DNA from: a virus
Taxonomy: Duplodnaviria > Caudoviricetes
Direction: 5' to 3' (one strand)
Virus record (IMG/VR): IMGVR_UViG_2974736276_000001
Span: 32,001 to 96,000 of that record
Length of the DNA stretch: 64,000 nucleotides
Of this stretch, positions 2,991 to 39,602 are shown piece after piece (positions within the stretch are counted from its first letter, which is position 1; every line of letters starts with the position of its first letter). Below the pieces are notes generated by a model, which made no database searches, was not told where the DNA came from, and was given only the letters and a program-made list of their open reading frames with translations. The position numbers and the translations under genes are program-made.

Positions 2991-3253
2991 TTTGTCAAGA
3001 ATCCATAAAGCATAATAACATGTTGCCAAATTTCTACAGCTTCTTGTTCAGAGATGCGAATACCAGTTTCAGAAATAAAGTTTTCGAGGAACCCGTTAGA
3101 ATCCAGTTCAACAAACGCATTCACTGAATCACACGACCATTGGATAAAATCCCACTTCTCTTCAGCATTAAATAAAATCTGACCTGGACCTGTAGTTCTA
3201 ACAATAGAAAATTCACCAACATCTTTAACAACAAAACTAATTTGCTTAATCAT
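2987..3253 (-). CDS. Hypothetical protein
   Basis: Tightly packed minus-strand ORF. Confidence 0.6.
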   Translation of the reverse strand: MIKQISFVVKDVGEFSIVRTTGPGQILFNAEEKWDFIQWSCDSVNAFVELDSNGFLENFISETGIRISEQEAVEIWQHVIMLYGFLTK

Positions 3254-31055: not shown

Positions 31056-31316
31056 TTACGGTCGAATGATTTTCGCTAGTTCTTCCATGTGATGGCGAAC
31101 TTCTTTCTTGTGATCAGCATGGTCTTTAGAACCTTCGCCTTTTTTATCTTTAGCATCAGCATCTTTTAGAAGCTTGACGAGTTCATCACGTCGACCTTCT
31201 TTACCAGCTTTAGTTTCTGCTTTACTGAAGAATTTTACTGCTTCACCTACATCTTTAAACTCTGGTACGCGTTTAACGTCTTCTGACTCTGTTAAGAATT
31301 CTTTATATGTTTTCAT
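31056..31316 (-). CDS. Internal head protein (IP family)
   Basis: CTS MKTYKEFLTE; late promoter TATAAATA at 31346-31353. Confidence 0.85.
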   Translation of the reverse strand: MKTYKEFLTESEDVKRVPEFKDVGEAVKFFSKAETKAGKEGRRDELVKLLKDADAKDKKGEGSKDHADHKKEVRHHMEELAKIIRP

Positions 31317-31357
31317 TTAATTCACCGACTGTTGGAAGATATCGGTATTTATACTAC

Positions 31358-31382
31358 AAAGCCCAGAACAAAGTCTGGGCTT
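31358..31382 (-). terminator. Terminator hairpin (near-identical copy at 31030-31049)
   Basis: GCCCAGA CTTTGT TCTGGGC TTT. Confidence 0.75.
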
Positions 31383-31389
31383 AAAATCG

Positions 31390-31575
31390 ACAGCATCACG
31401 TACTGGCACATGACCTGCGAATATTCATTAACTCTAGCTCGGAGGCATCAGTCTCACCAGAGAAATATAGCGTGTACCGGAGATGCCTTACAGGGCAGAG
31501 CTTTTATGCCTAATCAAAGAACACTTTTCGGGACGAACCCGCCGACTATATACACGACTCAGTGATAGCAGCTGT
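31390..31575 (-). ncRNA. About 185-nt multibranch structured RNA
   Basis: Closing stem ACAGC/GCTGT plus ATCAC/GTGAT, three internal hairpins, possible pseudoknot. Confidence 0.6.
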
Positions 31576-31589
31576 AACCGCACATCAAA

Positions 31590-31805
31590 TTATAACAGAA
31601 TTGCTGGAGCAGGAGAAACTGGGAAAACCGGAGCATTCTTAATTTCATTAACTTTAGTATGAAGTTTATCAATCTTAACTTCAACTTTGTCTACTGCATC
31701 TTGCACAACTCTTTCAACTTTTCGGGTAGAACTATTACGAGTGACTAATGCACCGATAACAAACCCTATAACAAAAATAGCTACATGTAGCAAAAACGTT
31801 TCCAT
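31590..31805 (-). CDS. Small single-pass membrane protein, late-expressed
   Basis: N-terminal TM plus coiled coil; TATAAATA at 31830-31837 and RBS hairpin. Confidence 0.75.
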   Translation of the reverse strand: METFLLHVAIFVIGFVIGALVTRNSSTRKVERVVQDAVDKVEVKIDKLHTKVNEIKNAPVFPVSPAPAILL

Positions 31806-31886
31806 ATATCCTCCTGTATTTACAGGAAGTATTTATAGAGCACCCAGGTCAATGCTCAATCAGTGTAAAGCCTGGCGTTAAGAATT

Positions 31887-31961
31887 TGGAGCTGCCGATG
31901 GGAGTCGAACCCACGTCTACTGGGTGGAAGCCAGGGATAATAGCCACTATACGACGACAGC
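31887..31961 (-). tRNA. tRNA-Gly(TCC)
   Basis: Cloverleaf, loop CT-TCC-AC, GTTCGA, CCA. Confidence 0.92.
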
Positions 31962-32040
31962 AATTTAACGGTGTTTACTATCCGCAAAGCACCGGCAGAG
32001 ATATTCCCTTTATTTTAAGACTCTGGTTTCTCTGCTTTAC

Positions 32041-32244
32041 CTAGTCTATTACTAGGAAGAAGTCAATTGACCAGACATCATATGTGACATCATAAGCCCG
32101 ACTTTGTCCTTTGTAATAATTATAAATCTTATCTTCAGCTTGTTCTTCTGATTCAGCTTCTACTGAGACGAATTTTTCTTCAGTCTTATAATCATCGTCC
32201 ATATACTCTTGTTTACGGACTTTAATCTTAGCTTGATATTGCAT
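32041..32244 (-). CDS. Acidic hypothetical protein
   Basis: MQYQAKIKV..., GAGG RBS right after tRNA-Trp. Confidence 0.65.
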   Translation of the reverse strand: MQYQAKIKVRKQEYMDDDYKTEEKFVSVEAESEEQAEDKIYNYYKGQSRAYDVTYDVWSIDFFLVID

Positions 32245-32260
32245 AATTTCCTCACGAATT

Positions 32261-32334
32261 TGGCAGGCCCACAAGGATTCGAACCCTGGCTTCTGAGGTT
32301 GGAGCTCAGCGTACTACCACTATACGATAGACCT
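32261..32334 (-). tRNA. tRNA-Trp(CCA)
   Basis: CTGAG CT-CCA-AC CTCAG; CCA end. Confidence 0.93.
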
Positions 32335-32340
32335 AAAATT

Positions 32341-32416
32341 TGGTGCCTGCAGCAGGCTTCGAACCCACGACCCCTTCATTACAAGTGAAGTGCTCTACCA
32401 ACTGAGCTATACAGGC
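32341..32416 (-). tRNA. tRNA-Thr(TGT)
   Basis: CTTCA CT-TGT-AA TGAAG; CCA. Confidence 0.93.
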
Positions 32417-32420
32417 AAAT

Positions 32421-32496
32421 TGGTCAGGACAGCTGGACTCGAACCAGCGACCGACTGCTTAGAAGGCAGATGCTCTGTCCTCTGAGCTATGTCCCG
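32421..32496 (-). tRNA. tRNA-Arg(TCT)
   Basis: CTGC CT-TCT-AA GCAG; CCA. Confidence 0.93.
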
Positions 32497-32502
32497 AAGA
32501 AT

Positions 32503-32532
32503 TAATTATACTCTTTTATTTATAAAGCAATT
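32503..32532 (-). promoter_or_regulatory. Overlapping middle (MotA box plus TATAAT) and late (TATAAATA) promoters
   Basis: ATTGCTTTATAAATAAAAGAGTATAAT. Confidence 0.8.
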
Positions 32533-32911
32533 ATGGAACAAACACCCGACGGTGAGTAAGAGAGCCATAGTCATAGATGTAGCGATATTCAACTTCAAGA
32601 CCAGCAGCCTTTGCAGCTTCAATACCGTAATGCATGCCGCGAGTGATACCAAAATCAACATACACTACTGATCCATTTGCAACTTTCTTCCAGGCTAGTC
32701 CAGCATCGATACCCCATTGACGTTCAGAAGGAACATAGTCATTCAAGATTCCAGGCTGAGTGTAAAGCAAATGAGACGCAATTGGTGCTTCACCTTGGGA
32801 TAAAGAATGTCGTACACAGGCACGAGCATATTCAACATTCTGTTCTTCAGTACGAGAGATACCATTAAATTCGTATGGAGCAAAAGGAGATTCAAGGATT
32901 ACAAGTTTCAT
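32531..32911 (-). CDS. Nucleoside 2-deoxyribosyltransferase-like (DUF4406-type) protein
   Basis: VILESPF...GEAPIASHLLYTQ...ER..GI.AGLAW...GITRGM..GI. Confidence 0.65.
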   Translation of the reverse strand: MKLVILESPFAPYEFNGISRTEEQNVEYARACVRHSLSQGEAPIASHLLYTQPGILNDYVPSERQWGIDAGLAWKKVANGSVVYVDFGITRGMHYGIEAAKAAGLEVEYRYIYDYGSLTHRRVFVP

Positions 32912-33351
32912 AGCAATTCTCTTAATCGATAAAGCTGATTACAGAACTCTCGTTCAGTCAATACAGTCTCGTTGATTTTATTCTTACCCATTGAGTGAGT
33001 AAGCGTGGATTTATTTGTTGCTTTAAGAGCGCGTTTGAAACCATCATTTGTTCCAAGAGCATCAAATGCTTGTGTCAGCAATGTTTGATATGCTTCTGAA
33101 CTGCGCTGCATTGGAACGCCTTTCCAATACAATGTCTGGTCACGGAACCATTTCTTTTTCTTGCCTTTAAACTTAGCTGACTTACCAACTAAAGTACAAA
33201 CATGTGCTTGCACATCAGGATTGCTAAACTTCAGCGACTGGAGGAATCCTTCCATTGATGCACATTCAACACCATCAAAAGTGAATGGATGAGGAGCAAA
33301 ATTACTTAAAGCACATGAAGGATATGCACTACCTGAACCAATGTCCATCAT
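32908..33351 (-). CDS. NADAR-family protein, T4 gp30.3-like
   Basis: YPSCALSNFAPHPF.FDG...SMEGFLQSLK...TLYWKG...R.S..YQ. Confidence 0.85.
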   Translation of the reverse strand: MMDIGSGSAYPSCALSNFAPHPFTFDGVECASMEGFLQSLKFSNPDVQAHVCTLVGKSAKFKGKKKKWFRDQTLYWKGVPMQRSSEAYQTLLTQAFDALGTNDGFKRALKATNKSTLTHSMGKNKINETVLTEREFCNQLYRLRELL

Positions 33352-33566
33352 TCAGCACCATAAAATTCAGCAATGTCGTAAAAGTCTGTAATGATATTCT
33401 CAATTTCTTTTTCAAAATAAATTAGATGTGGAATGTAATTTATTGGTGCTAGATGATTAGCACATTGTAAACACTGATTACCTAATGCATCTTCATAAAT
33501 CACAGCCTTGGAATGGCCGCCTGATTTCCACTCGATAATAGCAAAACCTAAAGGATACTTTTTCAC
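33348..33566 (-). CDS. Hypothetical protein
   Basis: GTG start with GAGG RBS. Confidence 0.6.
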   Translation of the reverse strand: MKKYPLGFAIIEWKSGGHSKAVIYEDALGNQCLQCANHLAPINYIPHLIYFEKEIENIITDFYDIAEFYGAE

Positions 33567-33589
33567 AATGTTTTCCTCACAAGAATAAG

Positions 33590-33715
33590 TGTACCAGAGG
33601 GACTTGAACCCCCAAGATTGCAGCCTCTCGTCGGGTTACCTCTTACTCAGCTGGATGCTTAAACCAGCGTTTCAACAGAGTTCGCCAATGTGTCTACCGG
33701 TTTCACCATGGTACG
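33590..33715 (-). ncRNA. tRNA-like RNA with anticodon arm replaced by a multibranch domain of about 70 nt
   Basis: Acceptor GTACCA/TGGTAC, Leu-type D arm, T arm GGGGG TTCAAGT CCCTC, no CCA. Confidence 0.75.
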
Positions 33716-33787
33716 TGTCTGTGACATATCCGGAATGTCGGAATTAACATCTCACTCTCATATAGTCACATCTTTTACAGACTCTAG

Positions 33788-33854
33788 TGGAGATACCCGG
33801 AATTGAACCGAGGTCAGCGAATTTTGCGCCGTAATTGCACTATACTATATCCCC
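33788..33854 (-). ncRNA. 67-nt tRNA-Ala-like RNA with 3-bp anticodon stem
   Basis: GGGGATA/TATCTCC-A (G3:U70, A73), T arm, GCG CAAAATT CGC. Confidence 0.7.
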
Positions 33855-33859
33855 GAATT

Positions 33860-33934
33860 TGGTGGCCCTGGCAGGAATCGAACCTGCATCAAGCGATTAT
33901 GAGTCGCTAGCTTGAACCGTCCAGCTACAGGGCC
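33860..33934 (-). tRNA. tRNA-CAT, likely Ile2 (lysidine) or elongator Met
   Basis: GGCCCTG acceptor as in Ile2 tRNAs; CT-CAT-AA; CCA. Confidence 0.88.
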
Positions 33935-33942
33935 TAATCTTT

Positions 33943-34025
33943 AGTGCGTGCTCTATGCCAGGGTTACCCCTCGCTGGGACTCGAACCCATTAAACCGTAT
34001 TTCCTGAAGTCACTTTTCGGGCACT
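33943..34025 (-). ncRNA. T-loop-containing structured RNA
   Basis: AGTGC/GCACT closing stem; TGGG TTCGAGT CCCA; AGGG GTAA CCCT. Confidence 0.6.
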
Positions 34026-34179
34026 TAATTGATAACAGTGAGGGGTGATCAGTCCATCCTCGAGTAATGGGTTTCCTTAAAGTACTCCGCCGCTCGGTTA
34101 GTCTCGCACCTAGCTAAGATTGCTCTTAGGAGGCTCAGCTCTCGTCTCGCAGACATACACTGTTATCAATTAAATGCCC
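34019..34179 (-). ncRNA. About 160-nt RNA closed by a 22-bp stem
   Basis: GGGCATTTAATTGATAACAGTG / CACTGTTATCAATTAAGTGCCC with internal GNRA hairpins. Confidence 0.75.
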
Positions 34180-34240
34180 TCTTTCGAGGGCTTGCCTTTC
34201 GGCTACCTTGTCGGGCGTTTCCACCTGCTAGGCAAGTGTT
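34176..34240 (-). ncRNA. Small GNRA-rich RNA resembling the T4 p2 segment
   Basis: ACACTTGCCTAGCAGGTGGAAACGCCCGACAAGGTAGCCGAAAGGC followed by GCCCTC GAAA GAGGGC. Confidence 0.6.
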
Positions 34241-34257
34241 CTTTTACTTGATGGATT

Positions 34258-34325
34258 AATAATAACACTAATATTTTATAGCACTTATATGAAAAAGCCC
34301 CGTAACAGATTTCTCTGTCCAGGGC
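34258..34325 (-). promoter_or_regulatory. Terminator followed by a middle-type promoter
   Basis: GCCCTG...CGGGGC TTTTT then TGCTATA...TATTAT. Confidence 0.6.
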
Positions 34326-34330
34326 GTCAT

Positions 34331-34405
34331 TGGAGGCGGGAGAAGGAGTTGCACCTACGACCTCGAGGTTATGAGCCTCGCATTCTACTACTGAACTATC
34401 CCGCT
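34331..34405 (-). tRNA. Initiator-like tRNA-fMet(CAT)
   Basis: A1xC72 mismatch, GCGGG acceptor, CT-CAT-AA; atypical T loop TGCAACT. Confidence 0.8.
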
Positions 34406-34737
34406 ATTGAAGCATTTAAATTTTTATGAATTAATATTACACTAGATTCACTATATACACAATTCTGTAATGAAGTAATGCGCCAAGAACCAAACGGCAT
34501 TACTCTAAAACCTTCAGGTGTAAAACCTACTAATAGAGCTACTACTAAACTATTACCACGCGAAACACTTACTAAATCACCTGGTGAAACTTCTCTTTTA
34601 ATCTTATCCAAGCGAGATTCATTGGTTAAAGTTGCCAATGATTTTGGAATAACCAGAGCAGCATTTTCTAATACATCTTGAGCTTGTAGACCTTCATACT
34701 TATTGTAGAAATCTTTAGCTGATTTAGTAATTGACAT
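34396..34737 (-). CDS. Hypothetical protein
   Basis: MSITKSAKD...; stop overlaps the tRNA 5' end. Confidence 0.6.
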   Translation of the reverse strand: MSITKSAKDFYNKYEGLQAQDVLENAALVIPKSLATLTNESRLDKIKREVSPGDLVSVSRGNSLVVALLVGFTPEGFRVMPFGSWRITSLQNCVYSESSVILIHKNLNASIAG

Positions 34738-34754
34738 TGTATTTCTCTCATAAT

Positions 34755-34839
34755 TGGTACATCTGATGGGACTCGAACCCATAATCCTCTAGGGCGGGAG
34801 ATTTTAAGTCTCCTGTGTATTCCATTCCACCACAGATGC
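34755..34839 (-). tRNA. tRNA-Leu(TAA)
   Basis: GGAGA CT-TAA-AA TCTCC, long V arm, CCA. Confidence 0.93.
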
Positions 34840-34846
34840 ATTGAAT

Positions 34847-34921
34847 TGGTGGGGACCACTGGTAACGATCCAGTCTCTCAGGCTTTTCAGGCGAGCGCTA
34901 ATCCATCTCAGCTAGGACCCC
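34847..34921 (-). tRNA. tRNA-Phe(GAA), atypical
   Basis: CT-GAA-AA, CCA; two anticodon-stem mismatches, U5:U68, T loop ATCGTTA. Confidence 0.7.
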
Positions 34922-34927
34922 GTTAAA

Positions 34928-35173
34928 TTAAACTAAATGAAGCTCATTAGACATCCACAATTGAGCAAAACGTTCTGAAACTAAAGTAATTCTTGAAGGC
35001 GTTTTAACTCGAGTGCTTACATTTTCAATTTCAACACCGTGAGCATTTTTACCTAATACTTTACCAACTGTTACTTCACCCCAGTCACTCATACCTCGAG
35101 CTTTCAGTGGAGTAAGAACATAATCACCAATATAAACCGGTTTGTTGTACTTGTCTTGAATTACTGGTACCAT
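34928..35173 (-). CDS. Small KOW/SH3-like hypothetical protein
   Basis: DKYNKPVYIGDYV; GAGG RBS. Confidence 0.65.
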   Translation of the reverse strand: MVPVIQDKYNKPVYIGDYVLTPLKARGMSDWGEVTVGKVLGKNAHGVEIENVSTRVKTPSRITLVSERFAQLWMSNELHLV

Positions 35174-35192
35174 TATATTTTCCTCATTTAAT

Positions 35193-35269
35193 TGGTCTCA
35201 TACGCTATTACAATGCGCTCCGCACGGAAATGAGAAGTCGTAACTGCTCAGCACCTTATTAATATGAGA
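35193..35269 (-). ncRNA. 77-nt CCA-ended tRNA-sized RNA without canonical D/T loops
   Basis: TCTCATA/TATGAGA-CCA with three inner hairpins. Confidence 0.7.
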
Positions 35270-35274
35270 TTTTT

Positions 35275-35349
35275 TGGTACTCTTACCGGGAATCGAACCC
35301 GGATTTCAAGATTGAAAGTCTTGCGACCTAACCGTTAGTCGATAAGAGC
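35275..35349 (-). tRNA. tRNA-Glu(TTC)
   Basis: CAAGA CT-TTC-AA TCTTG; CCA. Confidence 0.93.
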
Positions 35350-35355
35350 ATTAAT

Positions 35356-35448
35356 TGGAGGAAGTGAAGGGATTCGAACCCTTGGGCCTGCTTTCACAGA
35401 CCGCCGGTTTTCAAGACCGGTGCAATAATCCATCTCTGCCACACTTCC
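35356..35448 (-). tRNA. tRNA-Ser(TGA)
   Basis: CCGGT CT-TGA-AA ACCGG, long V arm. Confidence 0.93.
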
Positions 35449-35453
35449 AAATT

Positions 35454-35540
35454 TGGTGGGGACGGTAGGACTCGAACCTACGAAGTCGCGATGACAGGAG
35501 GGTTACAGCCTCCACCCTTTGCCGCTCGGGTCACATCCCC
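35454..35540 (-). tRNA. tRNA-Tyr(GTA)
   Basis: GGAGG CT-GTA-AC CCTCC, V arm, CCA. Confidence 0.93.
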
Positions 35541-35543
35541 AAA

Positions 35544-35987
35544 TTATTTCTTATTACGATTTTTACCTGAATTAGTAGGGGTTAAAGCATGACAATTAGA
35601 ACAGAGAATTCGTAAATTCTCAAATTCATTATTATAATGTTCACCATCTATATGATCTAATTCTAATGGAGCAGGTTGTCCCATCCATTCAGTAATACCG
35701 CAAATTTCGCATTTTCTTTCTTTTAAACCTTCCTCAAATAAACGATTCTTTAATTTGAAGGAAGATATTGAACTATTTTTAAATAGAAAATCTTTAGCAC
35801 TTTTCTTTAAAGGAGAACCACATCCTTTAGAGCCAGGATTACCTGCATACACTATACCCCATTTACGCAATAATCGTTTAAGTGTATCATTATTACAGTT
35901 AAGTATAACACACATTTTACTAATTGACGTGTGTTTGCTTATTAATTCTAATATTTCTTCTTTTCTAGCTTCTACATCTTTTCTCAA
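35544..35987 (-). mobile_element. Free-standing HNH homing endonuclease gene between tRNAs
   Basis: CEICG...LELDHIDG...NN...NLRILCSNCH. Confidence 0.9.
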
Positions 35988-35989
35988 TT

Positions 35990-36077
35990 TGGTACCTCAG
36001 GGGAGACTCGAACTCCCAATTGCCTTTCGGACGCCAGGACCTAAACCTGGTGTGTCTGCCAATTCCACCACTAAGGC
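35990..36077 (-). tRNA. tRNA-Leu(TAG)
   Basis: CCAGG TT-TAG-GT CCTGG, V arm, CCA. Confidence 0.93.
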
Positions 36078-36154
36078 ATTACTAAGCATTTAAATGAATA
36101 GATCAATTAGCGATTAATCTATTGGTTTAACTGCTTGAGCTAGTTAAGTGTGTT

Positions 36155-36233
36155 TGGTGGAGAATAAGAGATTCGAACTCTTCTGATATCCTCGGTGCAA
36201 GCGAGGTGTCCACTCCAAGCAGACCCATTCCCC
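36155..36233 (-). tRNA. tRNA-Ala(TGC)
   Basis: G3:U70; CCTCG CT-TGC-AC CGAGG; G8 and 7-nt variable loop are atypical. Confidence 0.88.
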
Positions 36234-36415
36234 TAATTGTACATATTAAGAATAAACTTTTTTGTTGCTTTAATTGAACTGCAATCAATACTTTCAAAGC
36301 TTCCGAAAATATTAGTTTTAACATTACCATTCTGCTTTTTATTGATTCTCATTATTTTAGAATCAAATCTATAAACAGAAATTGTGCCATCAGATTCATC
36401 AACAAAGGTTATCAT
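36233..36415 (-). CDS. Hypothetical protein
   Basis: MITFVDESDG... ORF filling a tRNA spacer. Confidence 0.5.
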   Translation of the reverse strand: MITFVDESDGTISVYRFDSKIMRINKKQNGNVKTNIFGSFESIDCSSIKATKKFILNMYN

Positions 36416-36432
36416 GTTATTCTCATTTAAAT

Positions 36433-36510
36433 TGGTCGGAGCGGCAGGATTCGAACCTGCGACCCGAGACATCCAAAGTCCCTACGCTGACCAGACTGCG
36501 CTACGCTCCG
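36433..36510 (-). tRNA. tRNA-Pro(TGG)
   Basis: CGGAGCG acceptor; TT-TGG-AT; CCA. Confidence 0.93.
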
Positions 36511-36515
36511 AAATT

Positions 36516-36591
36516 TGGTGGGAGTAGCAAGATTCGAACTTGCGACCTACGAGTTATCGGCTCGGTGCTCTACCAGCTGAGCTATACTCCC
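36516..36591 (-). tRNA. tRNA-Ile(GAT)
   Basis: CGAG CC-GAT-AA CTCG (C33); CCA. Confidence 0.9.
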
Positions 36592-36657
36592 ATTCGAAGA
36601 AAACTTTTATCCATGCACGCATTAGATTTAAAGATTTACATCTTCTGAATATTTATT

Positions 36658-36733
36658 TGGTGCATCGTCATGGAGTCGAACCATGGACCTCGGGATTAAA
36701 AGTCCCTTGCTCTACCAGCTGAGCTAACGACGC
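36658..36733 (-). tRNA. tRNA-Lys(TTT)
   Basis: GGGA CT-TTT-AA TCCC; CCA. Confidence 0.93.
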
Positions 36734-36735
36734 AT

Positions 36736-37005
36736 TTACCAGATTATAGGTTTCCTGATATACGGATTATATTCAGGATCACGATAAATATTGTGTTTTA
36801 CAAGTTCATCATCAACTTGTTTATAGAATTCAAAATGAACACTATTAAATCCGCCTTGAAGACCAGCAAGTGTAATAGTTGTACTTGATTGACCCATACT
36901 AATACTATCTACGACAAGCATAGAATTTAATTCAAAATCTTCAACTTTCTTCTGATCATGTGCATAACCAGAAGTAGGAGATACAAATTTAGCATATAAC
37001 GTCAT
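36736..37005 (-). CDS. T4 trna.3-like hypothetical protein
   Basis: MTLYAK...GY..DQ...SS...FN.V.F.F. Confidence 0.65.
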   Translation of the reverse strand: MTLYAKFVSPTSGYAHDQKKVEDFELNSMLVVDSISMGQSSTTITLAGLQGGFNSVHFEFYKQVDDELVKHNIYRDPEYNPYIRKPIIW

Positions 37006-37020
37006 TTTAATTTCCTCATT

Positions 37021-37251
37021 AATAATCCGGGTTATAGAGATACAAATCGGTGTAACCATCTAGAACCATATTTCAGGGGAAGAAGAATTACTCAGGGTGA
37101 CCAGTTCCTTGCTAACCATTCTCTACAACAGTCTCTATTCGCTAACACAGACATCGTTGAGTAGGACTGTGCGCTCGATTATTACCGCCGGAAGAAGCCT
37201 CAATGTGCTGTTGCCGGTTAATCTTTCTCCTATCGAAGGAACGGAATTATT
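37021..37251 (-). ncRNA. About 230-nt structured RNA
   Basis: AATAATTCCG/CGGATTATT closing stem; inner CCGG/CCGG, ACAGTC/GACTGT, AGAAT/ATTCT stems. Confidence 0.6.
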
Positions 37252-37255
37252 TTTA

Positions 37256-37320
37256 TAATCAAAGGCCGATAGTTTAACTCGGCACCCTAACACCAAAGTG
37301 TCTCGCTTTTCATTTGATTA
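37256..37320 (-). ncRNA. 65-nt three-way-junction RNA
   Basis: TAATCAAA/TTTGATTA; GACAC TTTG GTGTT; GCCGA/TCGGC. Confidence 0.6.
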
Positions 37321-37323
37321 ATT

Positions 37324-37399
37324 TGGCGGACCTAACGGGATTCGAACCCGTGACGCTCCCGTGACAGGGGAGTATTTTAACCGCTGAAACTATAGGTCC
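37324..37399 (-). tRNA. tRNA-Asp(GTC)
   Basis: CTCCC CT-GTC-AC GGGAG; GCCA. Confidence 0.93.
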
Positions 37400-37403
37400 A
37401 AAT

Positions 37404-37485
37404 TGGCTGGGGTGGAGGGATTCGAACCCACATTGTCATAGACACGGATTAACAGTCCGCCGCCAAACCGTTTGGCTACACCCCA
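37404..37485 (-). tRNA. tRNA-Asn(GTT) with long variable arm
   Basis: GCGGA CT-GTT-AA TCCGT; V arm GTC TAT GAC. Confidence 0.9.
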
Positions 37486-37682
37486 GTAGAATGAACTCGA
37501 TGAATATCAGCAAGTTCATCAAAAATACTTTTTAGACAAGAGTGAACAAAAACTTTTTCACTTGCACTCATTGTACTATTATTTATAACGCGTTTCATAC
37601 GCTCTTTTAGCTTTTTCTTACGATTACGAACAGTATTTTCTTCTGCTCTTGGGTGCATCGCAAGACTACTCAACCTTTTCAC
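37476..37682 (-). CDS. Basic hypothetical protein
   Basis: ORF whose stop overlaps the tRNA-Asn 5' end. Confidence 0.5.
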   Translation of the reverse strand: MKRLSSLAMHPRAEENTVRNRKKKLKERMKRVINNSTMSASEKVFVHSCLKSIFDELADIHRVHSTGV

Positions 37683-37872
37683 CAGTCCAAACTTGGTTTA
37701 CTACACCTTGTAGACCGTGACTGAAATCAACATTCTGATAAATTTTATAACCAGCAAAACCTACACCAATCCAGAATACGAGTATAACTGCAAGCATAAT
37801 GCGCCATACCCAAACAATAAAAGAACGATTGCGGTTAAAACGTTTATTAAAATCAGAGTGATTTGAAATCAT
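37666..37872 (-). CDS. Membrane protein
   Basis: Single TM segment; follows promoters at 37900-37985. Confidence 0.65.
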   Translation of the reverse strand: MISNHSDFNKRFNRNRSFIVWVWRIMLAVILVFWIGVGFAGYKIYQNVDFSHGLQGVVNQVWTGEKVE

Positions 37873-37897
37873 AATGTTTATCTCATTTGTTGGTAGA

Positions 37898-37986
37898 AGT
37901 TAATAATATATCAGAATTCGTAAAGCATATTACTATTCTGTACTTGATAGAGATTATAACACACCTACAAGTAATGTACACTATTT
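37898..37986 (-). promoter_or_regulatory. Tandem early (GTGTACA...TATAAT) and middle (ATGCTTTA...TATTAT) promoters
   Basis: Motifs read on the minus strand. Confidence 0.7.
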
Positions 37987-38003
37987 TAGTAAAATAACTA
38001 AGC

Positions 38004-38102
38004 ACAGTAAGGAAGGACGCCACTAATACATTCCTTCATATCGTCACGGTCAGCGGCGATTATGTTCACTTGCGATGAACAAATTTTCCGTGGTCTTACT
38101 GT
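38004..38102 (-). ncRNA. About 100-nt pseudoknotted RNA
   Basis: ACAGTAAG/CTTACTGT closing stem; CACGG/CCGTG; GAAGGA/TCCTTC; CGCCGCTGA/TTAGTGGCG loop-loop pairing. Confidence 0.7.
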
Positions 38103-38104
38103 AA

Positions 38105-38177
38105 TCAAGGGCGAGAATCGAACTCGCAACCAGTCAGCCCGAAGCCTCCCACTCTACCTATTTGAGCTGTCACTTGA
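38105..38177 (-). pseudogene. tRNA-like RNA with intact D and T arms, collapsed anticodon stem, no CCA
   Basis: GCTC AAATAGGTA GAGT; GCGAG TTCGATT CTCGC; TCAAG/CTTGA. Confidence 0.7.
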
Positions 38178-38180
38178 ATT

Positions 38181-38246
38181 TGGCGGGCACTTTCCGCACT
38201 CCATCACGCGTTGGAAGCCAAGGAGTGTTATCGGCTAAGTAACCCA
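38181..38246 (-). ncRNA. 66-nt CCA-ended bulged hairpin RNA
   Basis: GGG.TACTT..CCG..CACTCC / GGAGTG CGG AAGTG CCC-GCCA. Confidence 0.7.
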
Positions 38247-38251
38247 TTGTC

Positions 38252-38342
38252 TGGCGGAAGAAGAGAGATTTGAACTCTCAAGGCATTTAAAATACTCAGC
38301 TCGTTTCCAACGAGTTTTCGTCACCAATCGATTTGTTCTTCC
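38252..38342 (-). tRNA. tRNA-Ser(GGA)
   Basis: CTCG TT-GGA-AA CGAG, long V arm, GCCA; atypical D arm. Confidence 0.85.
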
Positions 38343-38347
38343 AAATT

Positions 38348-38437
38348 TGGAGGAAGCGATGGGATTCGAACCCATGGACCCGTTTTCACGGGCCTCTTCC
38401 TTAGCAGGGAAGTGCAATTCCACTCTGCCACGCTTCC
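38348..38437 (-). tRNA. tRNA-Ser(GCT)
   Basis: CTTCC CT-GCT-AA GGAAG, long V arm. Confidence 0.93.
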
Positions 38438-38441
38438 TAAT

Positions 38442-38517
38442 TGGGGTGACCGACCGGGTACGATCCGGCAACATCCGCAATCACAGTGCGGGGTTCTACC
38501 AATTGAACTACGGCCAC
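38442..38517 (-). tRNA. tRNA-His(GTG)
   Basis: CCGCA CT-GTG-AT TGCGG; C73; T loop ATCGTAC; no genomic G-1. Confidence 0.9.
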
Positions 38518-38625
38518 ATCAATACTCACTCCACCAATCATGATGGCTTTAGGCAAATATTTCAGAGTAACCCGCGGTGGTTAACTTGTATCAAACCGAA
38601 ATATCGTATCAAGTAAGTATTGATG
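38518..38625 (-). ncRNA. About 108-nt RNA closed by a 14-16 bp stem
   Basis: CATCAATACTTACT/AGTGAGTATTGATG; inner ATATTTCGG/CTGAAATAT, TAACC/GGTTA, CCATCA/TGGTGG. Confidence 0.7.
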
Positions 38626-38741
38626 TGACAATAAGCATCCGTGCTCAATAGCCAAGAGTAAAATCGGGCATCATCCAGAACTTCATGTTCGTCGTGACGG
38701 CTTGTGAAACCTAATCACCAAAGGTGCTCTCACATAGGTTT
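38623..38741 (-). ncRNA. About 115-nt structured RNA
   Basis: AAACCTA/TAGGTTT, CACC/GGTG, AAGC-CGT/ACGG-GCTT, GAAC/GTTC. Confidence 0.5.
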
Positions 38742-38750
38742 TGTTCGTAT

Positions 38751-38847
38751 AGGTGATTAAAGATGGGGTCGAACCATCAACTCGTACGCTGCTCTTCCTG
38801 GCAGTGTGGTTGCTCCGCATGCACCATATTAAGTACGCATTTAATCA
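38751..38847 (-). ncRNA. tRNA-like RNA: acceptor plus T arm with a two-hairpin insert
   Basis: TGATTAAA/TTTAATCA; GATGG TTCGACC CCATC; CGTAC/GTACG. Confidence 0.75.
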
Positions 38848-38848
38848 T

Positions 38849-38923
38849 TGGCTGGGGTACCTGGATTCGAACCAGAGATGCCGATATCAAAGACCGGTGC
38901 CGTAACCACTTGGCTATACCCCA
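38849..38923 (-). tRNA. tRNA-Gln(TTG)
   Basis: U1-A72; CCGGT CT-TTG-AT ATCGG; GCCA. Confidence 0.93.
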
Positions 38924-38952
38924 ATTAAGACCGGATTCACCCGGTCAAGTAA

Positions 38953-39123
38953 TTATACTACAGTTGTTGCCCTACGTCCTGTGAATAGAGATACCAGGAA
39001 GATGATAATACCGACAACGAATACTAACTTAGCTGCCATTGCTGCTGTACCTGCCAATGCACCAAAACCAAGTGCTGCAGCGACCAGAGCGACAATTAGA
39101 AAAATAATACCGTAATGTAACAT
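38953..39123 (-). CDS. ytjA: YtjA/UPF0391 (DUF1328) small membrane protein, 56 aa
   Basis: Hand-translated [56 protein letters not shown]; GAGGT RBS. Confidence 0.9.
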
Positions 39124-39145
39124 ACTTACCTCACTTATTTAGTCC

Positions 39146-39252
39146 GGACGAGTGGAATCGAACCACCCTATCAACAAGTTAGCGCTTCCTGATATTTTAA
39201 GAAACCCAAGATACTAATCTGTCTTTGGAGAGATCGCTAAATCTCTTAGTCC
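39146..39252 (-). ncRNA. T-arm-containing RNA with three hairpins and a possible pseudoknot
   Basis: GGAC/GTCC; GGGTGG TTCGATT CCACTC; AGAGAT TTAGCG ATCTCT loop complementary to CGCTAA. Confidence 0.7.
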
Positions 39253-39301
39253 ATCGCGAGGTTTTCTCTTTGTTTCGACCAGTTTGATTGATTGGTAAGT
39301 T

Positions 39302-39333
39302 TATTTATATTACAATATTTTACTCAAAGCATT
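39302..39333 (-). promoter_or_regulatory. Middle plus late promoters heading the tRNA/ncRNA cluster
   Basis: ATGCTTTG...TAATATAAATA. Confidence 0.75.
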
Positions 39334-39602
39334 CTGAACAATTCACCTGATTTCCAGGCTTCAACAAATGCACCAGAGACTTTACGAATCTCTGAAGATT
39401 TAGGGCGAATATGTGTTCCCCAATTATAACTACCACAACTAGACACATGTTCTTTAATGGTAATCATACCTTTATAAAAATCTTTAATCTCAATAAAGAC
39501 AATCGGAGGACGAGATTCTTTAGAATTCGCCTTGTCGGTAATCATTATAATATCACCGACTTCTAGCACATTACCATACATATCAACAATTTGCTTTGAC
39601 AT
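39324..39602 (-). CDS. KOW/SH3-like hypothetical protein
   Basis: DMYGNVLEVGDII. Confidence 0.65.
   Translation of the reverse strand: MSKQIVDMYGNVLEVGDIIMITDKANSKESRPPIVFIEIKDFYKGMITIKEHVSSCGSYNWGTHIRPKSSEIRKVSGAFVEAWKSGELFRML

What the first reader, a model, noticed from the sequence alone, without database searches (positions are those of the whole stretch)
31390..39300. tRNA-punctuated array of about 17 non-canonical structured RNAs
Seen: between 22 tRNA genes, most non-coding spacers are self-contained RNAs of 40-230 nt with their own closing stem, abutting tRNA ends within a few nucleotides. GNRA/UNCG loops and G:U pairs mostly work on the minus (transcribed) strand. Classes: tRNA bodies with swapped or shrunken anticodon domains (33590, 33788, 38105, 38751, 39146), CCA-ended non-tRNAs (35193, 38181), pseudoknots (31838, 38004) and long-stem-closed multibranch RNAs (31390, 34019, 37021, 38518). 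Known: T4 has only two such stable RNAs (species C and D, function unknown), and RNase P/RNase E processing of tRNAs releases spacers. Inference: the tRNAs act as processing punctuation that releases an RNA toolkit, for example decoys for anticodon nucleases or tRNA-sensing defences, protein sponges or ribozymes.
Basis: partly seen in the sequence, partly recalled or inferred. Interest (0 to 1): 0.9.

Follow-up and report, generated by a model that had tools for sequence, protein, structure and literature searches.

The report
Phage tRNA array hides tRNA-like RNAs
The tRNA gene cluster of this T4-like phage also carries about ten small RNA genes built from tRNA parts, several of them conserved in unrelated phages, and what they do is still unknown.

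Summary
The window comes from a T4-like phage (Roskildevirus). Its nearest relative is Erwinia phage IT22.

**What the region holds.** The minus strand of 31300-39330 is a tRNA operon with 22 tRNAs and about 12 small protein genes, one of them an HNH endonuclease. It also has promoter and terminator modules and real non-tRNA structured RNAs.

**RNA families with comparative support:**
- 39140-39285 is a divergent homologue of T4 species 1 RNA (rnaC).
- 33590-33715 is a tRNA-Leu-derived body with a roughly 13-bp extended arm. 21 of 29 pairs show compensatory changes across 19 sequences.
- 38103-38179 is a cloverleaf without a decoding loop. It occurs in 82 phage records from four phage groups.
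- 38181-38245 is a 65-nt hairpin ending in CCA with an invariant loop. 9 of 20 pairs are compensatory.

**Weaker candidates.** 33788, 38752 and 35193 are tRNA-like or CCA-ended units. 38518, 34024 and 38004 are stem-closed spacers. 31340-31594 is a conserved distal element.

**Not supported.**
- The count of about 17 elements.
- The 31838 "pseudoknot", which is a late promoter plus a ribosome-site hairpin.
- Any decoy function.

The tRNA-like units do not fold better than shuffled controls. No RNA-seq run was found.

**Most likely mechanism.** Host tRNA-processing enzymes release these RNAs as stable molecules of the T4 RNA C type, with unknown partners.

The parts
31887..38923 (-). tRNA operon: 22 tRNA genes, all with encoded CCA, interleaved with about 12 small protein genes
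   Evidence: ARAGORN finds 21. Rfam adds 34850-34921. CCA ends were read. Protein families: Pfam 4 of 10 ORFs above cut-off, PHROGs 8 of 10 ORFs.
39140..39285 (-). A2: divergent member of the T4 species 1 RNA (rnaC) family. Closing stem CUGGUCG/CGUCCGG with one U-U mismatch, T arm near the 3' end, no CCA. It lies 16 nt upstream of the ORF starting at 39123.
   Evidence: Model R3, built from 10 rnaC homologues, matches full length at 40.8 bits with E 2.7e-8 over 86 sources. The next best window hit scores 12.3 bits. Identical in IT22 and absent in FBB1.
39302..39309 (-). TATAAATA, the T4 late-promoter motif, just upstream of the rnaC homologue
   Evidence: The surrounding 38 nt are 95% identical in FBB1. 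The motif count is not above chance for the window as a whole (8 found, 5.6 expected).
38752..38847 (-). B1: tRNA-like RNA. It has an 8-bp acceptor stem, a UG linker, a 5-bp helix CGUAC/GUACG replacing the D and anticodon arms, and a T arm. The tail is ACCU. It starts 1 nt after tRNA-Gln.
   Evidence: 93% identical to FBB1, against 61-89% for the ORFs. One compensatory acceptor pair. MFE z -0.49.
38518..38626 (-). B3: stem-closed spacer RNA whose 3' end touches the 5' end of tRNA-His
   Evidence: 14-bp closing stem, 98 of 98 cells paired in 7 phages, 2 compensatory pairs. 0 of 2000 shuffles reach its 11-bp contiguous helix. z -3.77.
38181..38245 (-). C3: 65-nt rod-like hairpin ending GCCA, with a 19-nt loop holding the invariant motif CUUCCAMCGYGUG. 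It starts 5-6 nt after tRNA-Ser(GGA).
   Evidence: Model R1. 9 distinct sequences, 98.9% of cells paired, 9 of 20 pairs compensatory, 0 of 500 shuffles reach this. Found in Roskildevirus, Winklervirus, Vequintavirinae and the jumbo phage Muenster.
38103..38179 (-). C2: cloverleaf tRNA mimic. It has a 7-bp acceptor stem, a 5-nt linker UGAYA, an invariant D arm and a T arm. The 'anticodon' arm is a 7-position helix with a tandem G-A pair and a variable 4-6-nt cap. No CCA.
   Evidence: 8 distinct sequences, 97.6% of cells paired, 10 of 21 pairs compensatory, 5 of 500 shuffles reach this. 82 phage records. Annotated variously as tRNA-Cys, Thr, Gln, Undet, a CDS, or nothing.
38004..38102 (-). C1: 99-nt unit closed by the 8-bp stem ACAGUAAG/CUUACUGU, starting directly after C2
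   Evidence: 40 of 2000 shuffles reach it. z -3.53. The two changes in IT22 keep an inner helix paired. The pseudoknot is not supported.
35193..35269 (-). I: 77-nt unit with the 7-bp closing stem UCUCAUA/UAUGAGA followed directly by CCA. It lies 5 nt after tRNA-Glu and 19 nt before the ORF starting at 35173.
   Evidence: 35 of 2000 shuffles; z -0.95. Contigs of relatives lack exactly 35192-35273. The only homologue is IT22, so there are no covariation data.
34176..34245 (-). K2: hairpins plus an intrinsic terminator, homologous to the stretch that follows rnaC in T4
   Evidence: Most of the listed rows among the 870 matching records align to query 90-150. Annotated 'terminator' in PhAPEC2.
34024..34176 (-). 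K3: RNA closed by a long stem of about 18 bp, with a variable interior
   Evidence: 0 of 2000 shuffles reach it. z -2.03. The stem is kept in FBB1 with one compensatory change and in IT22 with one G-U.
33788..33854 (-). L2: 67-nt tRNA-like RNA with a 4-bp anticodon stem and the loop CAAAAUU. CCA reads CUA in the window but CCA in IT22.
   Evidence: Rfam tRNA 41.4 bits. Missed by default ARAGORN. Its homologue in Pantoea phage Phynn is annotated tRNA-Ser. A relative's contig lacks exactly 33785-33859.
33590..33715 (-). L: 126-nt RNA derived from tRNA-Leu. It has an acceptor stem, a 3-bp D stem with a type II D loop, a variable arm and a T arm. The anticodon loop is replaced by a three-helix arm of about 13 bp. 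No CCA.
   Evidence: Model R2 gives 22 full-length hits of at least 61 bits in 86 sources, and the next hits are tRNA-Leu genes. 19 distinct sequences, 95.7% of cells paired, 21 of 29 pairs compensatory, 0 of 500 shuffles reach this.
31340..31594 (-). N1: conserved non-coding element at the distal end of the operon. It contains the invariant motif GAGACUGAUGCCUC and ends in a terminator hairpin (31353-31382) and a late-promoter motif (31346-31353).
   Evidence: nhmmer finds it in 12 loci of Roskildevirus, Karamvirus, Jiaodavirus and EcS1. 12 of 42 predicted pairs are compensatory.
31806..31886 (-). N2: regulatory module rather than an RNA gene. A late-promoter motif (31830-31837) is followed by a hairpin that covers the Shine-Dalgarno sequence of the ORF starting at 31805.
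   Evidence: z -3.06. The T4 precedents are genes e, soc, 49 and I-TevI (passage read in PMC3014915). This reading is an inference.
37006..37189 (-). D2: conserved non-coding leader of the ORF 36736-37005
   Evidence: 91% identical to FBB1, against 73% for the ORF itself. The PHROG profile begins at residue 19 of the longest ORF. Function unknown.
36078..36154 (-). G: AT-rich long hairpin between tRNA-Leu(UAG) and tRNA-Ala
   Evidence: z -5.46, 0 of 200 shuffles fold as well. Identical in IT22.

Best explanation
The region is a T4-type tRNA operon. Between its tRNAs, small protein genes, promoters and terminators it carries a set of separate small-RNA genes made from tRNA parts.

**How they are probably made.** Each RNA keeps the features that host tRNA-processing enzymes read. 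These are a closing acceptor-like stem, usually a T arm with a D loop that can form the tRNA elbow, and in some cases an encoded CCA. The RNA is therefore probably cut out of the polycistronic transcript by RNase P and 3' processing enzymes. It would then persist as a stable RNA, as T4 RNA C and RNA D do.

**What varies.** The anticodon domain is replaced by a family-specific 'payload':
- an extended three-helix arm in L;
- a helix with a tandem G-A pair and a variable cap in C2;
- a large insert in the rnaC homologue;
- a conserved 13-nt loop on a rod in C3.

The payload most likely binds a protein or RNA partner in trans.

**Other spacers.** B3, K3 and C1 are stem-closed RNAs that abut tRNA ends. 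They probably serve processing or folding insulation.

**Shown:** the structures, their conservation, their modular gain and loss, and homology of one unit to rnaC.

**Inferred:** transcription, processing, stability and a trans-acting role. The partner is unknown.
For: **Covariation.**
- L: 21 of 29 pairs compensatory, 0 of 500 shuffles reach this, slid controls give at most 7.
- C2: 10 of 21 pairs compensatory, slid controls at most 2.
- C3: 9 of 20 pairs compensatory, slid controls at most 2.

**Homology to rnaC.** The model matches 39140-39285 full length at 40.8 bits.

**Independence of context.**
- L is followed by an ORF in the window but by tRNA-Arg in Winklervirus.
- C3 follows tRNA-Ser here and tRNA-Thr in Winklervirus. 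It precedes tRNA-Arg in Hena1 and follows an HNH gene in Muenster.
- C2 occurs in T4-like, N4-like and jumbo phages.

**tRNA features.**
- 62 of 63 orphan T arms in 86 loci lie near tRNAs on the same strand, and 50 of them have a 7-bp acceptor stem.
- Genome-wide, 5 of 6 orphan T arms lie in this cluster.
- The units are spaced from their neighbours as the tRNAs are.
- Relatives show exact cassette indels.

**Conservation.** C3, B1 and D2 are 91-93% identical to FBB1, against 61-89% for the ORFs.

**Literature.** T4 RNA C and RNA D are late, Northern-validated RNAs of unknown function (passage read in PMC9697503).
Against: - There is no expression or end-mapping evidence for this phage.
- The tRNA-like units do not fold better than shuffled sequence: z is -0.32 for L, +0.69 for C2, -0.49 for B1 and -1.01 for A2.
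- B1, I, L2 and C1 have almost no comparative data.
- L2 has lost its CCA in the window. L2, I and C3 are missing from close relatives, so they are dispensable.
- Alignments made by fitting sequences to the models lean towards the modelled structure.
- Some loci are the same phage held in two collections. Identical rows were counted once.
- No ligand, target or phenotype is known for any family, T4 RNA C included.
Confidence: 0.55

Rival explanations
1. The elements act only in cis. They are processing signals and folding insulators. tRNA-like units ('t-elements') and stem-closed spacers direct RNase P, 3' processing enzymes and RNase III to cut the long transcript. This releases tRNAs and small monocistronic mRNAs with defined ends, and the excised pieces have no role of their own.
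For: **ORFs are wedged between tRNA or tRNA-like units.**
- L ends 23 nt before the start codon at 33566.
- I ends 19 nt before the start codon at 35173.
- The rnaC homologue ends 16 nt before the start codon at 39123.
- Several ORFs end 2-6 nt before a tRNA.

**Closing stems abut tRNA ends.** The closing stems of B3 and K3 end at or near a tRNA 5' end.

**Precedent.** A search listing shows that plant mitochondria use such t-elements (PMC1920247, abstract start only).
Against: - L, C2 and C3 keep conserved sequence in their non-tRNA parts. That conservation is not needed for cutting.
- They occur in different gene contexts in different phages.
- C3 and I carry an encoded CCA, as mature stable RNAs do.
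- T4 RNA C accumulates as a discrete RNA (PMC9697503).
Confidence: 0.2
2. Anti-defence decoys, which is the first reader's idea and a special case of the best explanation. The RNAs soak up host tRNA-directed nucleases or tRNA-binding toxins, or they blind tRNA-sensing defences.
For: - Phage tRNAs are reported to counter tRNA-cleaving defences. I saw only search listings and abstract starts for PMC10264068, PMC11464382 and PMC11555353.
- A convergent mutation in rnaD arose when a T4-like phage adapted to a semi-permissive host (passages read in PMC12685909).
- The loop of C3 holds CUUCCAA (CUUCCAC in Hena1). The phage's own tRNA-Gly(UCC) has the anticodon loop CUUCCAC. That the host tRNA-Gly(UCC) loop reads CUUCCAA is recalled and was not tested.
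Against: - C2 has a 4-6-nt variable cap in place of an anticodon loop.
- The apical loop of L is not conserved.
- The C3 motif sits in a 19-nt open loop, not in a 7-nt loop on a 5-bp stem.
- No defence or counter-defence gene is linked to these RNAs.
- No experiment addresses the idea.
Confidence: 0.15
3. Neutral debris. The units are decaying tRNA duplicates and recombination scars in a fast-turning region seeded with a homing endonuclease. Any structure is inherited from tRNA ancestors.
For: - The region is a mosaic. The HNH insertion, tRNA swaps and cassette indels are seen in relatives.
- L2 has lost its CCA.
- The Phe-like gene is degenerate (36.8 bits).
- K4 holds an orphan 4-bp T arm without an acceptor stem and has z +0.29.
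- The tRNA-like units have weak folding z-scores.
Against: - Compensatory changes occur in helices that no tRNA has. In helices 3-5 of L, 10 of 13 pairs are compensatory.
- L is conserved across 5 genera. C2 and C3 are conserved across phage families.
- C3 and B1 are more conserved than the neighbouring ORFs.
Confidence: 0.1

Closest known systems
T4 species 1 RNA (RNA C, rnaC) and species 2 RNA (RNA D, rnaD)
   Same: - Small RNAs encoded inside the tRNA cluster of a T4-type phage, on the tRNA strand.
- RNA C has a closing acceptor-like stem and a T arm around a large non-tRNA insert.
- Function unknown (PMC3014915, PMC9697503).
- 39140-39285 is a member of the rnaC family by covariance model.
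   Different: - The window's rnaC homologue is the most divergent of 21 matches. It scores 40.8 bits, against 80-169 bits for the others.
- It sits at the promoter-proximal end of the cluster, not the distal end.
- No rnaD homologue was found. Similarity between N1 and rnaD is weak.
- L, C2, C3, B1 and I are not homologous to rnaC or rnaD by BLAST or by model.
Canonical tRNA (Rfam RF00005)
   Same: - Acceptor stem, T arm with a UUCRANY loop, and a D loop with GG.
- L derives from tRNA-Leu: model R2's second tier of hits are tRNA-Leu genes.
- L2 passes the Rfam gathering score.
   Different: - L, C2, B1 and the rnaC homologue have no 7-nt anticodon loop on a 5-bp stem.
- L, C2, B1 and the rnaC homologue have no encoded CCA, whereas all 22 tRNAs here have one.
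- Apart from L2, none reaches an Rfam tRNA match, even at E up to 5.
Engineered 'tRNA scaffold' RNAs, and t-elements of plant mitochondria
   Same: A tRNA body used as a handle for processing and stability, with a foreign RNA in place of the anticodon arm. Alternatively, a tRNA-like fold used as a cutting signal next to an mRNA.
   Different: - These are analogies of mechanism only.
- The scaffold papers were seen only as a search listing (PMC3401473), and t-elements only as an abstract start (PMC1920247).
- No common descent is implied and no processing was shown here.
Bacterial tRNA mimics: YrlA (Y RNA-like), skipping-rope, DUF2693-FD, salivarius-1
   Same: Non-coding RNAs that imitate the tRNA L-shape.
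   Different: - The best Rfam YrlA hits score 25.2 and 19.2 bits against a gathering score of 69, and they lie on true tRNAs.
- No hit was found to the other families.
- The topology differs: here the 5' and 3' ends form the acceptor stem.

Membership tests
T4 rnaC (species 1 RNA) family | Full-length match to a covariance model built from known rnaC homologues | tested here: met
   R3 matches window 39140-39285 at model positions 1-144 of 144, with 40.8 bits and E 2.7e-8 over 1.25 Mb. Other window hits score at most 12.3 bits.
T4 rnaC (species 1 RNA) family | A 7-position closing stem with U-U mismatches, a T arm just before the 3' strand, and no encoded CCA | tested here: met
   The stem is CUGGUCG/CGUCCGG with one U-U. 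The T arm is GGUGG-UUCGAUU-CCACU and the tail is ACUA. Family features were read.
T4 rnaC (species 1 RNA) family | Accumulates as a discrete, stable, late RNA | not testable with these tools
   No RNA run holds this phage. A TATAAATA motif lies about 17 nt upstream, which is only suggestive.
T4 rnaC (species 1 RNA) family | Membership of the other units (L, C2, C3, B1, I) | tested here: not met
   No R3 hit at E up to 10 on these units. BLAST finds only T-arm matches. The alignment of B1 with rnaC is not convincing.
T4 rnaD (species 2 RNA) | Sequence homology to T4 rnaD | tested here: inconclusive
   No BLAST hit in the window. Local alignment of rnaD to N1 members: for JD18, 5 of 300 shuffles score as high. 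The other four are not significant.
Canonical tRNA (RF00005) | Reaches the Rfam gathering score of 29 bits | tested here: not met
   Met only by L2 (41.4 bits). L, C2, C3, B1, I and the rnaC homologue give no tRNA match even at E up to 5.
Canonical tRNA (RF00005) | A 7-nt anticodon loop on a 5-bp stem | tested here: not met
   - L has a three-helix arm with a 7-9-nt non-conserved cap.
- C2 has a 4-6-nt cap.
- L2 has a 4-bp stem and the loop CAAAAUU, with no U at loop position 2 where tRNAs have U33.
Canonical tRNA (RF00005) | Encoded CCA, as in every tRNA of this cluster | tested here: not met
   All 22 tRNAs end in CCA. C3 and I have CCA. L, C2, B1 and the rnaC homologue lack it. L2 reads CUA here and CCA in IT22.
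tRNA-punctuation / t-element processing signals | RNase P and 3' endonuclease cleavage at the element, creating mRNA ends | not testable with these tools
   Only the geometry is known: L, I and the rnaC homologue end 16-23 nt before start codons.
YrlA / Y RNA-like tRNA mimics (RF02553) | Reaches the Rfam gathering score of 69 bits | tested here: not met
   The best hits score 25.2 and 19.2 bits and overlap true tRNAs.

The most novel reading that the evidence does not exclude
Phage tRNA arrays carry a horizontally exchanged toolkit of tRNA-scaffolded RNAs that disarm host factors which read tRNAs.
- C3 would display a bait resembling the tRNA-Gly(UCC) anticodon loop on a CCA-ended rod.
- L would offer a tRNA-Leu body, and C2 a generic tRNA elbow. 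These would sequester tRNA-directed nucleases, tRNA-modifying toxins or tRNA sensors.
- This would finally give T4 RNA C and RNA D a function.
Probability: 0.15. Interest if true: 0.9.

Novelty: new variant of a known kind. Interest (0 to 1): 0.62.

Why it matters
T4 RNA C and RNA D have had no known function for about fifty years. This window shows they are not oddities. One phage carries an rnaC homologue plus at least three further conserved families built on tRNA parts. Two of these families cross phage family boundaries. They are annotated inconsistently as odd tRNAs, as proteins, or not at all.

Phage tRNAs are now studied as counter-measures to tRNA-cleaving defences. A defined set of non-decoding tRNA mimics, with models, boundaries and covariation-backed structures, makes the old question directly testable. 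It would also improve phage genome annotation.

Tried and rejected
**Expression.** No RNA holder was listed for the region, so expression could not be examined. The DNA contigs laid were used only for structural variants.

**Folding energy.**
- Whole-spacer MFE z-scores were mostly weak. K scored -3.75, G -4.05, M1 -3.03 and N2 -2.83. The other ten were above -1.8.

**Motif scans.**
- Generic promoter and terminator scans were not above shuffles: 19 promoters against 22.4 expected, and 10 terminators against 6.5 expected.
- TATAAATA is not enriched in the window as a whole.

**Searches for more homologues.**
- The pattern scan of viral contigs for C3 gave 33 stretches. Only 3 of these (L085, L089, L097) scored with model R1, and they are isolates already known. 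The rest are chance matches.
- The scan for C2 gave 4 stretches, all known isolates or close kin.
- Distant BLAST of B, A2 and D found nothing informative outside Roskildevirus.
- A search of E. coli genomes with the phage tRNA-Gly found nothing. The host-loop comparison for C3 therefore rests on recall.

**Homology tests that failed or were unclear.**
- The complement of the C3 loop has no convincing target in the phage genome. There are two hits with 2 mismatches each.
- Homology of B1 to rnaC was rejected.
- Homology of N1 to rnaD is inconclusive.

**Ideas set aside.**
- L as an intron-bearing tRNA-Leu, which relaxed ARAGORN suggested. The insert is a conserved, covarying arm, and no splicing route exists for it in bacteria (established knowledge).
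- Aminoacylation of L. There is no conserved discriminator base and no CCA.
- The H-type pseudoknot at 38004. Its last loop would be 1 nt across a 6-bp helix. This comes from my own reading of the sequence, and it looks sterically unlikely.

**Literature.** Searches listed no paper that describes the L, C2 or C3 families. This is not proof that none exists. Supplements were closed and not consulted.

**Recalled, not seen in any call.**
- RNase III cleaves T4 species 1 RNA.
- RNase BN and the CCA-adding enzyme mature T4 tRNAs that lack an encoded CCA.

Full report
**What the region is**

The window belongs to a T4-like phage of the genus Roskildevirus.
- Megablast gives Erwinia phage IT22 at 93.6% identity over 83% of 31300-39400, and Erwinia phage FBB1 at about 80%.
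- The whole genome held for the window is 175,774 bases. All of its tRNA genes lie in this one cluster.
- ARAGORN finds 21 tRNAs on the minus strand between 31887 and 38923.
- Rfam's tRNA model adds 34850-34921 (36.8 bits, the position of tRNA-Phe in IT22) and 33788-33854 (41.4 bits).
- Every one of the 22 tRNAs has an encoded CCA. Neighbouring tRNAs are 4-6 nt apart.

**The spacers are not all non-coding**
- Four of 10 minus-strand ORFs pass Pfam cut-offs: DUF7768, gp30.3, HNH and DUF7248.
- Eight of 10 further ORFs match PHROG families, seven of them at E of 1.5e-13 or lower.
- About 12 small protein genes therefore sit between the tRNAs. Typically a Shine-Dalgarno sequence comes right after a tRNA or tRNA-like unit, and the stop codon lies 2-6 nt before the next tRNA.
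- The HNH gene at 35544-35987 is absent from IT22. In a relative's contig it is replaced by other sequence.
- Roughly 2.9 kb remains non-coding and non-tRNA (my own rough estimate from the coordinates).

**tRNA-like bodies are real and specific to strand and place**
- I scanned for a 5-bp stem around a UUCRANY loop. In the 64-kb window this finds 23 hairpins. Seventeen lie in called tRNAs. Five lie on the minus strand in the cluster's spacers (33597, 33796, 38111, 38762, 39151) and one lies elsewhere.
- Across the whole genome the count of such 'orphan' T arms is 6, with 5 in the cluster.
- In 86 loci, mostly T4-like and with some phages held twice, there are 63 orphan T arms. Sixty-two lie within 1.5 kb of a tRNA on the same strand, and 50 have a 7-bp acceptor stem.
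- Relaxed ARAGORN calls the window's five units as odd or 'intron-bearing' tRNAs.
- The Rfam scan at E up to 5 finds no non-tRNA family near its threshold.

**Family L (33590-33715)**
- The first seven sequences gave a tRNA-like fold. It has an acceptor stem, a 3-bp D stem with a type II D loop, a variable arm and a T arm. Three stacked helices stand in place of the anticodon loop.
- A covariance model (R2) found 22 full-length matches of 61-158 bits in 86 sources. They come from Roskildevirus, Winklervirus, Kagamiyamavirus (EcS1), Karamvirus (PG7), Jiaodavirus (JD18) and further uncultivated contigs.
- Its second tier of hits (30-45 bits) consists of tRNA-Leu genes, so L descends from tRNA-Leu.
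- On 19 distinct sequences, 95.7% of cells pair and 21 of 29 pairs show changes on both sides. None of 500 shuffles reaches this, and slid controls give at most 7.
- That alignment was fitted to the model, which favours the structure. The effect is nevertheless large, and it includes the three helices that no tRNA has.
- The apical loop is not conserved and no CCA or constant discriminator base follows. Decoding and charging are therefore unlikely.

**Family C2 (38103-38179)**
- Distant BLAST finds it in 82 phage records: T4-like phages of Klebsiella, Raoultella and Yersinia, N4-like coliphages (Bp4, ECBP1), and jumbo phages (RaK2, K64-1, Muenster).
- It is annotated as tRNA-Cys(ACA), tRNA-Thr, tRNA-Gln, 'Undet', a hypothetical protein, or nothing.
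- Eight distinct sequences share an invariant D arm, a 5-nt linker UGAYA and a T arm. The 'anticodon' arm reads G-U, then G-C or U-A, then a tandem G-A pair, then G-U, G-C and C-G, capped by 4-6 variable bases.
- The acceptor stems share no sequence, yet they pair.
- 97.6% of cells pair and 10 of 21 pairs are compensatory. Five of 500 shuffles reach this, and slid controls give at most 2.

**Family C3 (38181-38245)**
- This is a 65-nt rod of three helices that ends in GCCA. Its 19-nt loop holds the invariant motif CUUCCAMCGYGUG.
- It occurs in Roskildevirus, Winklervirus, Vequintavirinae (Hena1, pEp_SNUABM_01) and the jumbo phage Muenster.
- In the tRNA-flanked cases it lies a few nucleotides from a tRNA end.
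- Nine distinct sequences give 98.9% of cells paired and 9 of 20 compensatory pairs. None of 500 shuffles reaches this, and slid controls give at most 2.
- The heptamer CUUCCAA (CUUCCAC in Hena1) resembles the anticodon loop CUUCCAC of the phage's own tRNA-Gly(UCC). It is not presented on an anticodon-type stem.

**The T4 RNA C homologue (39140-39285)**
- T4's rnaC is conserved in many T4-like loci. It folds with a terminal acceptor-like stem and a T arm.
- A model built from ten homologues (R3) matches window 39140-39285 over its full length at 40.8 bits. The next window hits, at 12.3 bits or less, are tRNAs.
- Across 86 sources there are 21 matches, and the window and IT22 are the most divergent.
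- The unit follows a TATAAATA motif (39302-39309) and ends 16 nt before the ORF at 39123.
- In T4, RNA C and RNA D are late RNAs confirmed by Northern blot, with unknown function (passages read in PMC9697503 and PMC3014915).
- A T4-like phage adapting to a semi-permissive host repeatedly acquired a mutation in rnaD (passages read in PMC12685909).

**Units with less support**
- **B1 (38752-38847).** It has an 8-bp acceptor stem, a T arm and one helix in place of the D and anticodon arms. It is 93% identical to FBB1 with one compensatory pair.
- **L2 (33788-33854).** This is a short tRNA-like gene whose CCA reads CUA here.
- **I (35193-35269).** This 77-nt unit has a 7-bp closing stem followed by CCA, and 35 of 2000 shuffles match the stem.
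- **C1 (38004-38102).** It is closed by an 8-bp stem that 40 of 2000 shuffles match, with z -3.53.
- **B3 (38518-38626).** Its 14-bp closing stem pairs in 7 of 7 phages and ends at the first base of tRNA-His.
- **K3 (34024-34176).** Its long stem is kept in all three Roskildeviruses while the interior changes.
- **N1 (31340-31594).** This conserved distal element occurs in 12 loci.
- Contigs of relatives lack exactly 33785-33859 (L2), 35192-35273 (I) and 38177-38343 (C3 plus tRNA-Ser). The units therefore behave as cassettes with the predicted borders.

**What is not an RNA gene**
- 31806-31886 holds a late-promoter motif followed by a hairpin that covers the ribosome-binding site of the next ORF. 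This is the arrangement described for T4 genes e, soc, 49 and I-TevI.
- 34176-34245 is homologous to the hairpin-plus-terminator stretch that follows rnaC in T4.
- 37006-37189 is a conserved leader.
- E, F, D1, L0 and K4 show neither a significant closing stem nor a good z-score.

**How it most likely works**

Established knowledge of E. coli and T4 says that polycistronic tRNA transcripts are cut by RNase P at 5' ends and trimmed at 3' ends. CCA is added where it is missing. An acceptor-T minihelix with an elbow is enough for recognition.
- The units here keep exactly those features and the same spacing as the tRNAs. I therefore infer that they are released and stabilised in the same way.
- The conserved non-tRNA parts would then be the working parts.
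- The trans-acting role is an inference from conserved payload sequence and from the way the units move between gene contexts.
- A purely cis-acting role in processing remains possible, above all for B3, K3 and C1.

**Limits**
- There are no RNA data for this phage.
- The tRNA-like units do not fold better than shuffled sequence.
- The sequences are related to one another, so the shuffle counts are not probabilities.

Noticed in passing
L005 6202-6296 (Enterobacter phage PG7): The gene annotated 'tRNA-Met' (95 nt) is the 3' tRNA-like part of PG7's rnaC homologue. T4 rnaC aligns to L005 6203-6341, and model R3 scores 157 bits there.
   Followed up: partly
L081 3013-3162 (Klebsiella phage Muenster); also RaK2 and K64-1: A 'hypothetical protein' CDS overlies the C2 homologue (3079-3157). 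This is probably an RNA gene annotated as protein.
   Followed up: partly
window 35544-35987: An HNH homing-endonuclease gene with an N-terminal helix-turn-helix lies between tRNA-Leu(UAG) and tRNA-Tyr. It is absent from IT22. A relative's contig has 270 other letters in place of 35544-36076.
   Followed up: partly
window 34850-34921: The Phe-like tRNA (anticodon GAA) has a non-canonical T loop and is only 67% identical to IT22's tRNA-Phe. It may be a failing tRNA. tRNA-His also has an unusual T loop.
   Followed up: no
window 36592-36657: The Lys-Ile spacer is 100% identical to FBB1 but only 76% identical to IT22, the reverse of the genome-wide pattern. This points to mosaic recombination within the cluster.
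   Followed up: no
window 36234-36432: The Pro-Ala spacer (25% G+C) has no counterpart in IT22 or FBB1. It holds a 60-aa ORF with no PHROG family, and a relative's contig skips 36237-36511.
   Followed up: no
window 31440-31460 and homologues: The motif GAGACUGAUGCCUC is invariant across Roskildevirus, Karamvirus and Jiaodavirus in the distal element N1. T4 rnaD has a similar GACUGAUGG...CCUGAG stretch, so N1 may be an expanded rnaD relative.
   Followed up: partly
L027, L028, L032 (IMG/VR contigs): The rnaC homologue is followed within a few nucleotides by an L-family RNA. The two families can therefore be direct neighbours.
   Followed up: no
window 54758-54774 (+): This is the only T-arm-like hairpin outside the tRNA cluster in the whole genome. 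It was not examined.
   Followed up: no
L084 3006-3074 (Pantoea phage Phynn): An L2-like 'tRNA-Ser' stands alone between head and recombination genes, far from any tRNA cluster.
   Followed up: no
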